Part shown: positions 39,001 to 42,000 of the stretch, piece after piece | Layout of the letters: each line of letters opens with the position of its first letter | How positions within the stretch are numbered: position 1 is the first letter of the stretch | DNA from: Escherichia coli | Lineage (GTDB): Bacteria > Pseudomonadota > Gammaproteobacteria > Enterobacterales > Enterobacteriaceae | Assembly (NCBI RefSeq): GCF_002854065.1 | Contig: NZ_CP024147.1 | Length of the DNA: 64,000 nt | Reading direction: 5' to 3' (one strand) | Position numbers: made by a program

Positions 39001-42000
39001 CCAGCGCTATCTTGAGAAACATCCTATTAGCCGTCCTGACGAACTCGAACATCACTCCTGTATTTTGATCGACTCGATGATGATCGACGACGCGAATATC
39101 TGGCGCTTCAACGTCGCCGGGAGTAAAGAGGTGCGGGATTATCGCGTGAAGGGAAATTACGTTTGCGACAACACGCAATCTGCGCTGGAGCTGGCACGAA
39201 ATCACCTGGGGATTGTGTTTGCGCCAGACAAAAGTGTGCAGAGAGATCTGCAAGACGGCACGCTGGTGCCCTGCTTTCAGCACCCGTATGAATGGTGGCT
39301 GGATCTGGTGGCTATCTTCCGTAAACGGGAATACCAGCCCTGGCGGGTCCAGTATGTGCTGGATGAAATGCTGCGTGAAATTCGCCACCAGCTTGCTCAG
39401 TCGCAGCAACTGCGGCCTGAACAAGCGGCGGAAAGCGAAGATTAATGATCGAGATAAAGGTAATGCACCCAGCTGGTCATGCGTAATAACACTTTGCGCA
39501 TCACCGAGACATGGCTGAAATGATCAGAGTAGACCGCCACCTGGGCGTAAATACCGTCTGGTAAAGCGCTCAAATCAGTGTGCTCATTCAGTTCAATGGT
39601 CGCGATAACGCCATCTGAACCCGGCGCTGTGTTTAACGTCTGTAAGGTGCCGGTCGACTGATAAGCTCCGCCGGGAACGGCTGGACTAATGGCTGCCAGC
39701 TTACCGCTGAATACCTTACCTGGCAGAGCATTAAACACCACTTCCGCATCGTCGCCAGGGGCCAGTCGCAGCAAGGAGTTCTGACGGAACTGCGCCACAA
39801 TTTGTCGTTTCTGATCGGGTATAAACACCATCACCGGACGTAGCGGCAGCGACGCGGCATAGGTACCCGGACGAATCAGTACCTGGGTCACATAACCATC
39901 GCTCGGCGCACGCACTATCGTCTGCTCAAGGTTATATTTTGCTTCCGCGAGCTGCGCTTTCAGGCTGGCGATTTGAGAATGTTCACCCAACACCAGGCTA
40001 TCCAGCTGGCTCTGGATCTGTTTTTGTTCCGCCGCCGATGACTTCACGGAGGCTTCCTGCGCCAGATAATTTTGCCGCGCCACATCGATATCGCGTTCTG
40101 AAAACGGGTTTACTTTCGCCTGGCTGCCGCGTGCGTAACGCTGATACTCTTTAGCGAATTTATCCCGCGTGGCCTTTGCCTGCTGAGTATTCGCCGCCAT
40201 CTCATCTAACTCTGCGCCCAACGCCCGCTGTTTATGTTCTGCGGTAACGATATCCGCCATCAGCCGATCCACCTGCGCCTGATAACGCGTCGGGTCCAGT
40301 CGAAATAGCACCTCACCTTTTTTAATTAGCGTATTTTTCTTGTCCGTCACTTCGATCACCACGCCTGTCACCTGCGGGACAACAGGAATAGAAATAACCG
40401 CTTTTTGCGCTTTAAAGGTATACGGATGGTTATAGTTCATTAACAGAATTAAACCGCTGACAATAAATATTCCACCCAGGGCCGCGGTGGGAATGGTCCA
40501 TTTATTTACAGGAATTTTGAAGATCTTAAACATTGCCCATGCGAAAGCCACATAGGTCAAAATAATCAGTAAATCCATAAGTATTACTCGGCAGAAGAGG
40601 ATTTGATGTCAGCGAGCTGTTTCTCCAGCCCAGCAATACGCTGTTGTAGTTGCACAACGGAGGAGTCATGGTTTTGCATTCCCCATCCCCGCTCCGGGCG
40701 GTAAAGCGTGGCCCAAATCCACAAAAATGGCCAGATAACATGCAGCGTAAAAAGACTCACCCAACCAGCAACATGAATGGCGTCGGCATGAGGATGATTA
40801 CGTTTTTTAGCAATCAGGTAGGGAATATCATGTAAAATAATAATCCCATAGAATATCACCAGAAATACAAAAATAAGCACTCCCAGTGCAAAATAGTCCA
40901 GGAACATATTTCCCTCAGAGAATATAAAAAAGAACAATTAACACATATTATGAAATGCCATGATGCAGTGCAATTTCCTTATTTATATAACGACATATTA
41001 TTTTTTATATACTTTCTGAAGTGTGCTGCGTGGCTTTTCAACAGGTCGAGGTTTATCATATTGAAATAATGGAACTATTGGCCAAATTTATGATTAAAAA
41101 CCGTAAAACATCCACAATGCAGATTAAGCGTATTAAACCTTCAATAATCTACCGTTTATTGCTGATTGTCCTCGGAATACCAATGGTGATTTACGGTCTG
41201 GTTTGCCCGCTCACCATCGAAACGCGAGATTAAACTCCTGGCAAAACACACCCCAGAAACGCACTTTTGTTGGCGTAGTCTGGGTTATTGCACACGTAGG
41301 TTTAAAACGTAAATTGTAACAACGTGCGCTTTGTTTATGCCGGATGCGGCGTGTACGCCTTATCCGGCCTACGGTCAGGTCCCCGTAGGCATGATAAGAC
41401 GCGTAAGCGTCGCATCAGGCAATTAATACCCGATGCGACCAGCTTCTTACATCAGAACAGCCCCAACGGTTTATCTGAGTAGCTCACCAGCAGGCACTTG
41501 GTTTGCTGGTAATGCTCCAGCATCATCTTGTGGGTTTCGCGTCCAATGCCTGATTGTTTGTAGCCGCCAAACGCCGCATGTGCCGGGTAAGCGTGATAAC
41601 AGTTGGTCCACACGCGCCCGGCCTGAATGCCGCGCCCCATCTTATAGGCCAGATTACCGTTGCGGCTCCAGACGCCTGCGCCCAGGCCATATTGCGTATC
41701 GTTCGCCAGCTCCAGCGCTTCTTCCATCGTTTTGAAGGTGGTCACCGCCAGCACCGGGCCAAAAATCTCTTCCTGGAACACCCGCATATTGTTCTGACCA
41801 AACAGAATCGTCGGTTCAAGGTAGTAGCCGTCTTTCAGTTCGCCTTCCAGCAGCTTGCGCCGCCCGCCGGTGAGCACGTCTGCGCCCTCTTTTTTACCGA
41901 TATCAATGTAGTTGAGGATGGTTTCCAGTTGCCCGTGAGAAACCTGCGCACCCATTTGCGTCACGCTGTCGAGTGGGTTACCGCTGCGAATGCTTTCGAC

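What the first reader, a model, noticed from the sequence alone, without database searches (positions are those of the whole stretch)
41021..41233. Possible small membrane-protein ORF divergent from yiaW
This is a 38- to 70-codon ORF with a single hydrophobic helix in otherwise non-coding sequence upstream of yiaW and adjacent to REP elements. Small membrane proteins are frequently unannotated, but the evidence here is weak.
Basis: inference. Interest (0 to 1): 0.2.

Follow-up and report, generated by a model that had tools for sequence, protein, structure and literature searches.

The report
Deleted remnant of small membrane gene
The small open reading frame between yiaW and aldB is what remains of a conserved 104-residue two-helix membrane-protein gene after an in-frame 171-bp deletion, and it now changes like non-coding DNA, so it is an ordinary decaying gene and not a hidden small protein.

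Summary
The ORF is present as described (41021-41233, + strand, one hydrophobic helix). Its length is not above chance: 31% of dinucleotide shuffles of the spacer give an ORF of at least 70 codons. The real coding frame starts at ATG 41090 (47 codons). The upstream 23 codons carry stops or frameshifts in other strains and overlap the yiaWV promoter.

The 47-codon frame is an internally deleted allele of a 104-aa gene. That gene is intact in E. whittamii, Escherichia sp. E1V33, Citrobacter amalonaticus/farmeri, Franconibacter and 28 of 5,426 complete E. coli genomes, always convergent with aldB. It belongs to a widespread two-transmembrane family with no Pfam or NCBIfam model.

An in-frame deletion of 57 codons between imperfect 15-bp direct repeats removed the conserved loop, helix 2 and the GLWxYS motif. 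Intact alleles show purifying selection (dN/dS 0.09-0.13; 8 nonsynonymous : 20 synonymous sites). Short alleles do not (13 : 2, codon positions 6:5:4; Fisher p = 4e-4).

The flanking DNA holds a hicB 3' remnant and REP elements. PGAP already annotates the short ORF as a hypothetical protein in many E. coli genomes. Translation could not be checked. Interest is low.

The parts
41090..41233 (+). Truncated coding frame (47 codons plus stop): MIKNRKTSTMQIKRIKPSIIYRLLLIVLGIPMVIYGLVCPLTIETRD. It keeps codons 1-39 and 97-104 of the ancestral 104-codon gene.
   Evidence: The start aligns with the ATG of the 104/103-aa homologues in E. coli EC42405, E. whittamii, Citrobacter and Franconibacter. PGAP annotates the same 144 bp as WP_001066080.1 in a K-12 genome.
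41021..41089 (+). It is not coding; it is the leader and promoter region of the small gene and overlaps the yiaWV promoter.
   Evidence: This frame has an in-frame stop in O157 strain 319 and two in the Citrobacter-like locus L083. Other E. coli strains carry frameshifts here, seen as different N-terminal fusions. The ATG at 41069 is GTG in K-12, and the GTG at 41021 is ATG in K-12.
41051..41068 (+). Conserved motif GTTTATCATATTGAAATA, 22-39 nt upstream of the start codon. The TATCAT at 41054-41059 is a candidate -10 element for the small gene (inferred).
   Evidence: The motif is invariant in all Escherichia alleles. It is GTTTATCATGTTGAAATA in L083 and GTTTATTATGTTTAAACA in C. amalonaticus. 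The consensus scan found only a minus-strand match using the complement (TGGCCA-18-TATGAT), which is no more than chance gives.
41192..41206 (+). Deletion junction: the surviving copy of an imperfect 15-bp direct repeat (TACGGTCTGGTTTGC). The ancestral 171 bp (57 codons) followed position 41206.
   Evidence: The long allele reads TAC GGT CTG GTT TGC | GGC ... CTG TAC AGC CTG GTC CGC | CCG. BLAST segments of the window against L084 overlap exactly at 41192-41206.
41233..41301 (-). 3' remnant of the antitoxin gene hicB (C-terminal 27 residues, with a 12-nt internal deletion).
   Evidence: tblastn of HicB from E. coli EC42405 matches residues 110-136 at 70% identity (TYVCNNPDYANKSAFLG----CVLPGV), E = 7e-9. 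Intact hicB-hicA occupy this position in L084 and L004.
41333..41458 (.). REP elements (a BIME-like cluster) that replace the rest of hicBA. They lie downstream of aldB, and the outermost match runs about 7 nt past its stop codon.
   Evidence: Three inverted-repeat pairs are present. There are sub-threshold Rfam naRNA4 (REP-derived) matches, E = 3e-5 to 2e-4. This part of the query matches at several places per genome, median 3.
41004..41032 (-). Position equivalent to the yiaWV sigma-70 promoter reported for K-12 (CAGACA-17-TATAAA; in the window CACGCA-17-TATAAA).
   Evidence: Shimada et al. 2014, PMC3946193, list this promoter for the yiaW/aldB spacer and flag it as H-NS-bound. I mapped it by eye on the sequence. 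The spacer is 31-33% GC.
40584..40907 (-). yiaW (DUF3302 protein), the divergent neighbour.
   Evidence: RefSeq annotation of matching genomes.
41452..42990 (-). aldB (aldehyde dehydrogenase B), the convergent neighbour. This is the conserved syntenic partner of the small gene.
   Evidence: Annotation. The gene-aldB convergent pair is kept in Citrobacter, Franconibacter and L083.

Best explanation
The ORF is a gene remnant. Escherichia ancestrally carried, convergent with aldB, a 104-codon gene for a small inner-membrane protein. The AlphaFold2 model shows a short N-terminal strand, helix 1, a short conserved loop, helix 2 and a short C-terminal strand. In the lineage leading to most E. coli, a 171-bp in-frame deletion between two imperfect 15-bp direct repeats (TACGGTCTGGTTTGC / TACAGCCTGGTCCGC) fused codon 39 to codon 97. 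This looks like replication slippage or short-homology recombination, but that mechanism is inferred. The deletion removed the end of helix 1, the conserved FGxxTVxWNG loop, all of helix 2 and the GLWxYS motif. What is left is 47 codons: the N-terminal tail, most of helix 1 and the last 8 residues. Because the deletion kept the frame and the original start and stop codons, an ORF persists and gene callers still pick it up. It no longer evolves as a protein, and most likely has lost the ancestral function. It may still be transcribed and translated at a low level from the retained upstream signals; this was not tested. The neighbouring hicBA toxin-antitoxin pair was lost separately and replaced by REP elements, so the whole spacer is a patchwork of decayed genes. 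Shown: the homology, the deletion, the selection contrast and the synteny. Inferred: the deletion mechanism, the loss of function and the promoter.
For: (1) Long alleles exist. There is a 127-codon ORF (104 codons from the conserved ATG) in E. whittamii and Escherichia sp. E1V33. 104-aa CDSs WP_001064341.1 and WP_001064340.1 occur in E. coli EC42405, 2013C-4282 and EC26. The window and K-12 lack exactly the central 57 codons.
(2) Only 28 of 5,426 complete E. coli genomes carry the 171-bp segment. 3,814 genomes carry the locus and 3,801 carry yiaW.
(3) The long form is a genuine gene. Homologues of 103-104 aa lie in conserved synteny next to aldB in C. amalonaticus/farmeri, Franconibacter and L083. 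169 cluster representatives match at E <= 1e-3, mostly full length and about 100-125 aa. The AF2 model has pLDDT 84.9.
(4) Selection differs. Long alleles have dN/dS 0.09-0.13 (Sd 16-19, Nd 6-7). Pairs of short alleles that include the window allele give 0.8-1.5. Derived variants in six short haplotypes are 13 N: 2 S at codon positions 6:5:4, against 8 N: 20 S among long alleles. This gives Fisher p = 3.7e-4, and the short-allele ratio is not different from the neutral expectation (p = 0.39).
(5) A different deletion removed the 5' half in Escherichia sp. MOD1-EC7003. IS elements truncate the locus in other strains. Both are typical of a dispensable locus.
(6) Upstream codons 41021-41089 are interrupted in other strains.
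Against: The short frame is intact in all six haplotypes sampled, and the ATG is nearly invariant among called proteins. The upstream conserved motif is retained. The short allele is at about 99% frequency among genomes that carry the locus. These facts are compatible with some residual or new role. Comparisons among the K-12-like short alleles give pN/pS of 0.2-0.7, but on only 2-4 changes each, so relaxed constraint is demonstrated mainly on the window/O157 branch. The haplotype sample is small (six), and the variants were polarised with a single long E. coli allele. No expression data could be examined.
Confidence: 0.8

Rival explanations
1. The 47-codon frame is a functional single-pass small membrane protein. 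Either it is a neofunctionalised product of the deletion, or it retains part of the ancestral activity through helix 1.
For: The frame, start codon and upstream motif are intact in every short haplotype sampled. The short allele is nearly fixed among genomes that carry the locus. The window-lineage substitutions (N2I, N3K, S5R, G27V, T30I) raise N-terminal positive charge and helix hydropathy from 1.71 to 2.53, which is what a better membrane anchor would need. PGAP models it as a CDS.
Against: There is no excess of synonymous change (13 N: 2 S). The substitutions are non-conservative and differ between lineages (G/V at 27, T/S/I/P at 30, C/R at 39). No Shine-Dalgarno sequence precedes the start. 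All family-invariant residues (G59, G88, L89, plus nearly invariant W90) are deleted. The short form is not found outside E. coli. The region is H-NS-flagged and AT-rich. N:S above 3:1 is not significant (p = 0.39).
Confidence: 0.12
2. The ORF is a chance frame in AT-rich regulatory DNA, and the only function of the DNA is as the yiaWV promoter and H-NS-bound spacer.
For: ORFs of this length arise in 31% of shuffles. The reported yiaWV promoter overlaps 41004-41032. A 50-bp block at 40963-41012 is conserved in Citrobacter yiaW loci that lack the ORF.
Against: The frame from 41090 onward is homologous, residue for residue, to real 104-aa proteins in other species, so it is not a chance frame. 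The regulatory block conserved with Citrobacter lies upstream of 41013, outside the true coding part.
Confidence: 0.05
3. The short form is ancestral, and the 171 bp in the long form is an insertion (for example a small mobile element) that happens to keep the frame.
For: The segment is flanked by a 15-bp imperfect direct repeat, which could be read as a target-site duplication.
Against: Distant homologues in Citrobacter, Franconibacter and about 150 metagenomic representatives all contain the segment and conserve it best (FGxxTVxWNG, GLWxYSxFRPL). The segment shows 6-7 synonymous to 2 nonsynonymous differences between species. MOD1-EC7003 retains its 3' half. It occurs once per genome, and only in the 28 long-form genomes.
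Confidence: 0.01
4. The ORF encodes a type I toxin-like hydrophobic peptide controlled by an antisense RNA.
For: It is a small hydrophobic peptide in an intergenic region next to a toxin-antitoxin (hicBA) remnant.
Against: No Rfam family overlaps it. There is no match in PADLOC, and PHROGs gives only a weak hit (E = 0.0033) to a family of unknown function. It is present as a single copy per genome. Its origin from a 104-aa non-toxin-like gene explains the sequence fully. The adjacent hicBA is a type II system and unrelated.
Confidence: 0.02

Closest known systems
RefSeq 'hypothetical protein' WP_001064341.1 / WP_001064340.1 (104 aa, E. coli EC42405, 2013C-4282, EC26) and the 104/103-aa Citrobacter amalonaticus/farmeri and Franconibacter orthologues next to aldB
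   Same: The position is the same (between yiaW or its substitute and aldB, convergent with aldB). The start codon and upstream motif are the same. Residues 1-39 and 97-104 are homologous, at 80-95% identity within Escherichia.
   Different: The window allele lacks residues 40-96: the conserved loop, helix 2 and the GLWxYS motif. It also shows no purifying selection.
PGAP-annotated 47- to 67-aa 'hypothetical proteins' of E. coli (WP_001066080.1, WP_001066082.1, WP_001719070.1, WP_001298731.1, WP_000885436.1)
   Same: They are the same locus and frame. WP_001719070.1 is the window allele called from TTG 41078.
   Different: The annotated start codons are inconsistent (ATG 41090, TTG 41078, further upstream). 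None of the records notes that the ORF is a deletion derivative.
Validated E. coli small membrane proteins of 50 aa or fewer found by ribosome profiling (Weaver et al. 2019, bioRxiv 10.1101/511675; Stringer et al. 2021, bioRxiv 10.1101/2021.07.02.450978)
   Same: Similar size, a single predicted transmembrane helix, and an intergenic location.
   Different: Those have translation evidence, and conserved examples have constrained sequences. This ORF has no accessible translation evidence and a neutral substitution pattern. It is not mentioned in the main text of Weaver et al.. The supplements held here were absent or truncated.
Pseudogenes formed by internal in-frame deletion between short direct repeats (general class, from established knowledge)
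   Same: The deletion end-points lie in an imperfect 15-bp direct repeat. Constraint is relaxed afterwards. Other lineages carry independent, different lesions (a 5' deletion in MOD1-EC7003, IS insertions).
   Different: The frame and both termini are preserved, so the remnant looks like a complete small gene and is not flagged as a pseudogene.

Membership tests
aldB-adjacent ~104-aa two-transmembrane protein family (no Pfam or NCBIfam model; RefSeq hypothetical proteins) | Sequence homology of the N-terminal tail and helix 1, and of the C-terminal RPLxxxxx tail | tested here: met
   tblastn and alignment give 79-85% identity to long alleles over residues 1-61 of the 127-codon frame, and 54% identity to P0048 over the shared part.
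aldB-adjacent ~104-aa two-transmembrane protein family (no Pfam or NCBIfam model; RefSeq hypothetical proteins) | Full architecture: two long helices joined by the FGxxTVxWNG loop, with the invariant G59, G88 and L89 (and nearly invariant W90) of the GLWxYS motif | tested here: not met
   Residues 40-96 are deleted in the window. The invariant columns are listed, and the AF2 secondary structure is.
aldB-adjacent ~104-aa two-transmembrane protein family (no Pfam or NCBIfam model; RefSeq hypothetical proteins) | Synteny: convergent with the 3' end of aldB | tested here: met
   Window layout compared with L083, L092/93, L094/95 and L084.
aldB-adjacent ~104-aa two-transmembrane protein family (no Pfam or NCBIfam model; RefSeq hypothetical proteins) | Purifying selection on the coding frame | tested here: not met
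   Short alleles show 13 N: 2 S against 8 N: 20 S for long alleles, Fisher p = 3.7e-4. The window allele against the long E. coli allele gives pN/pS of 1.1.
Bona fide bacterial small protein gene (50 aa or fewer) | Reading frame of that size conserved across species | tested here: not met
   The short form was found only in E. coli. Other species carry the 104-aa form or nothing.
Bona fide bacterial small protein gene (50 aa or fewer) | Evidence of translation (ribosome profiling at the start codon, or an epitope-tagged product) | not testable with these tools
   Supplements were truncated before 3.75 Mb or not held. There is no mention in the main text of Weaver et al..
Bona fide bacterial small protein gene (50 aa or fewer) | Recognisable translation and transcription signals | tested here: inconclusive
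   There is no Shine-Dalgarno sequence before ATG 41090. A conserved upstream TATCAT motif is a possible -10, but the consensus scan found no plus-strand promoter above chance.
Pfam DUF3566 (the name UniRef gives to one Franconibacter member) | Match to the Pfam HMM at or near the gathering threshold | tested here: not met
   No DUF3566 hit for the 51 family members at E <= 0.01, nor for 9 members including P0052 at E <= 10. No precomputed Pfam domain on any hit.
Type I toxin-antitoxin toxin peptide | A known toxin or antisense RNA family, multicopy loci, overlapping antisense RNA | tested here: not met
   No Rfam match over the ORF. PADLOC gives none, and PHROGs gives only a weak hit (E = 0.0033) to a family of unknown function. 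One place per genome. The presence of an antisense RNA cannot be tested here.
HicBA type II toxin-antitoxin (for the flanking 41233-41301 segment) | Intact hicB and hicA genes | tested here: not met
   Only the last 27 HicB codons remain, with a 12-nt deletion, and there is no hicA. The pair is intact in L084 and L004.

The most novel reading that the evidence does not exclude
The in-frame deletion created a new, expressed single-pass membrane microprotein from a two-helix protein. The burst of charge- and hydrophobicity-increasing substitutions in the window/O145/O157 lineage (N2I, N3K, S5R, G27V, T30I; 8.5 nonsynonymous against 2.5 synonymous changes) would then reflect adaptive remodelling and not decay. 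That would make it a dated example of microprotein birth by gene truncation that went nearly to fixation in E. coli.
Probability: 0.1. Interest if true: 0.45.

Novelty: new member of a known kind. Interest (0 to 1): 0.17.

Why it matters
The practical value is for annotation. The frame is called as a 47- to 67-aa 'hypothetical protein' with inconsistent starts in thousands of E. coli genomes and is absent from curated K-12. It would be better labelled as an internally deleted remnant of the 104-aa gene. It is also a cautionary case for small-protein discovery. An intact, hydrophobic, species-wide ORF with a conserved start can still be a decaying fragment, and only comparison with long-form outgroups shows this. 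A secondary point is that the intact gene belongs to a widespread two-transmembrane family with no Pfam or NCBIfam model and no known function. The 28 E. coli strains that keep it are a natural resource for studying that family.

Tried and rejected
- **Ribosome-profiling and TSS evidence.** I searched the supplements of Stringer 2021, Weaver 2019, Meydan 2019, smORFer, Fesenko/Koonin 2024 and Ettwiller 2016 for yiaW, aldB and the K-12 coordinates 37544-37547xx. The files were absent or truncated before 3.75 Mb. Thomason 2015 is not held. The result is inconclusive, not negative.
- **Promoter and terminator scan of the spacer.** It gave one minus-strand promoter-like site against 1.6 expected, and no terminators. 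The hairpin at 41252-41284 is not more stable than shuffles (z = -1.0 and -0.5).
- **Rfam.** Only sub-threshold REP-derived naRNA4 hits, all outside the ORF.
- **Family identification for the long form.** Pfam, NCBIfam and PADLOC gave nothing significant; PHROGs gave only a weak hit (E = 0.0033) for the short peptide. Foldseek against PDB gave no match with E < 3. The AlphaFold-database library was unavailable. The profile search returned no Pfam-bearing relatives.
- **Genomic context of distant family members.** The neighbours were fimbrial usher/chaperone genes, a LysR regulator, and ECF sigma/FecR/TonB-receptor genes. No neighbour recurred, so there is no functional hint.
- **Independent deletions.** I considered whether the Cys/Arg polymorphism at the junction codon (TGC or CGC) marks independent deletion events. 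A single T/C change explains it equally well, so this is left open.
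Full report
**Locus.** The window is E. coli. The spacer matches strain 100416 at 100% and 3,799 complete genomes over at least 80% of its length. 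The genes are yiaV (39442-40578, -), yiaW (40584-40907, -), a 544-bp spacer, and aldB (41452-42990, -). It runs from GTG 41021 to TAA 41233 (70 codons), with in-frame ATGs at 41069, 41090 and 41117 and one hydrophobic stretch. Length alone means nothing here: 31% of dinucleotide shuffles of the spacer contain an ORF of at least 70 codons.

**Annotation status.** Curated K-12 (NC_000913.3) has no feature here. PGAP annotates a 'hypothetical protein' in many genomes, with inconsistent starts:
- 47 aa from ATG 41090 (WP_001066080.1 in a K-12 MG1655 assembly; WP_001066082.1)
- 51 aa from TTG 41078 (WP_001719070.1; WP_001298731.1)
- 67 aa (WP_000885436.1)

O157 genomes carry no annotation.

**First comparison.** K-12 differs from the window at 21 of 213 ORF positions, spread 9:6:6 over codon positions, with only three synonymous codon changes. 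A protein search found only E. coli sequences. Their N-terminal parts switch frame between strains, while the core from about residue 24 onward is conserved.

**Key result.** I fetched yiaW loci from other species and searched them. E. whittamii and Escherichia sp. E1V33 have the same frame, but 57 codons longer. The long form reads ...PLVIYGLVC-GILGMFGYDQVRWNDTVIHGLLALPAGLLAGLSVSVFLTVLIGTIACFGLWLYSLV-RPLTIETRD. E. coli strains EC42405, 2013C-4282 and EC26 also carry the long form, annotated as 104-aa proteins.

The window and K-12 lack exactly the central 171 bp. The end-points lie in an imperfect 15-bp direct repeat (TACGGTCTGGTTTGC ... TACAGCCTGGTCCGC), and the window retains one copy at 41192-41206. 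Only 28 of 5,426 complete E. coli genomes carry the 171-bp segment. The locus is present in 3,814 genomes and yiaW in 3,801. About 30% of genomes lack the whole block.

**The long form is a real gene.**
- A 104-aa homologue (54% identity) lies between yiaU and aldB in the Citrobacter-like contig L083.
- 104-aa orthologues lie between yiaW and aldB in C. amalonaticus/farmeri.
- 103-aa orthologues lie between avtA and aldB in Franconibacter.
- An exhaustive HMMER search found 169 cluster representatives at E <= 1e-3, mostly 100-125 aa and aligned end to end. Conserved motifs are FGxxTVxWNG and GLWxYSxFRPL.
- AlphaFold2 on that alignment gives pLDDT 84.9. The model has strand 7-10, helix 17-44, a small hairpin at 51-56, helix 59-95 and strand 100-103.
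- No Pfam, NCBIfam or PADLOC model matches, PHROGs gives only a weak hit of unknown function, and no PDB fold matches. The UniRef label 'DUF3566' on one member was not reproduced.

**True start.** All homologues start at the position of ATG 41090. In L083 the upstream 'codons' contain two stops, and O157 strain 319 has a TAA there. The ATG at 41069 is GTG in K-12. The ATG at 41117 is GTA in K-12 and GTA or GTG in the long alleles. So 41021-41089 is leader or promoter, not coding. It contains a motif conserved as far as Citrobacter (GTTTATCATATTGAAATA, 41051-41068). It also overlaps the position of the yiaWV sigma-70 promoter reported by Shimada et al. 2014, who flag the spacer as H-NS-bound (PMC3946193). 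The spacer is 31-33% GC.

**Selection.** Nei-Gojobori estimates:

| Comparison | Result |
|---|---|
| Long alleles (E. coli, whittamii, E1V33) | dN/dS 0.09-0.13 (16-19 synonymous, 6-7 nonsynonymous differences) |
| Long alleles against L083 | dN/dS about 0.2 |
| Short-allele pairs that include the window allele | dN/dS 0.8-1.5 |
| Window allele against the E. coli long allele, shared 47 codons | 8.5 nonsynonymous, 2.5 synonymous |
| Intact E. coli against whittamii, same 47 codons | 4 nonsynonymous, 12 synonymous (Fisher p = 0.014 against the row above) |

Counting each derived variant once across six short haplotypes gives 13 nonsynonymous to 2 synonymous, at codon positions 6:5:4. This is indistinguishable from neutrality (p = 0.39). 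It differs strongly from the 8:20 seen among long alleles (Fisher p = 3.7e-4). The counts are small, and the signal comes mainly from the window/O157 branch.

**Other decay at the locus.**
- Escherichia sp. MOD1-EC7003 lost the 5' half through a different deletion.
- IS66 and IS1 truncate the locus in two E. coli strains.
- Frameshifted and stop-loss variants appear among the called proteins.
- Downstream, 41233-41301 (-) is the last 27 codons of hicB. Intact hicB-hicA sit there in EC42405 and E1V33.
- The rest of that pair is replaced by REP elements at about 41333-41458.
- Loss of hicBA and the 171-bp deletion are independent events, because 2013C-4282 and EC26 have the long gene without hicBA.

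**Conclusion.** The ORF is the start- and stop-preserving remnant of a 104-codon two-helix membrane-protein gene. It has lost every family-invariant residue and shows no coding constraint. It is wrong if taken to mean a conserved small-protein gene.

A residual or new role for the 47-aa peptide cannot be excluded, because the frame, start and upstream motif are intact and the allele is nearly fixed. I could not examine expression data: the supplements were truncated or absent. I put about 0.8 on a non-functional remnant and about 0.1 on a functional truncated peptide.

Noticed in passing
window 41233-41301 (- strand): This is a 3' remnant of the type II antitoxin gene hicB (27 codons, 70% identity, with a 12-nt deletion). 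An intact hicB-hicA pair occupies this site in E. coli EC42405 and Escherichia sp. E1V33 and has been replaced here by REP elements.
   Followed up: yes
window 40963-41012: This 50-bp AT-rich block upstream of yiaW is conserved at 80-88% identity in about 14 Citrobacter (mostly freundii-complex) yiaW loci that otherwise share no spacer sequence. It includes the -10 (TATAAA, minus strand, 41004-41009) of the yiaWV promoter reported by Shimada 2014, so it is probably a yiaWV regulatory site.
   Followed up: partly
window 40950-41069 (+ strand): A second small ORF (39 aa, ATG start, MKCHDAVQFPYLYNDILFFIYFLKCAAWLFNRSRFIILK) lies over the yiaWV promoter block and ends at the TAATG overlapping ATG 41069. 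It is kept open in E. whittamii (L005 2339-2458) and, from a GTG, in E1V33. It is probably a by-product of conserved regulatory DNA.
   Followed up: no
L084 1501-1815; L099/L100 584-898; alignment A3: The intact 104-aa gene belongs to a widespread family of about 100-125-aa two-transmembrane proteins (169 representatives at 50% clustering). The family has no Pfam or NCBIfam model, no PDB fold match and no consistent gene neighbourhood outside Enterobacteriaceae, where it sits convergent with aldB.
   Followed up: partly
E. coli genome collection: About 30% of complete E. coli genomes (roughly 1,600 of 5,426) lack yiaW and the small-gene locus altogether, so the yiaVW-remnant block is accessory and not core. 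I did not determine which phylogroups lack it.
   Followed up: no
window 41204-41206 (codon 39 of the short frame): The junction codon is polymorphic. It is TGC (Cys, matching the left repeat) in the window, O157 and EC-JS426, and CGC (Arg, matching the right repeat) in K-12, GPEC1356 and STEC435. This could mean that crossovers occurred at different points in the repeat, that is, more than one deletion event, or it could be a simple T/C mutation.
   Followed up: partly
L087 and L090 (E. coli strains bR_120_Kylling and PSS-16): IS66-family (ISCro1) and IS1A insertions or deletions have removed yiaW and the 5' part of the small ORF in these strains, leaving only its 3' end next to aldB.
   Followed up: partly
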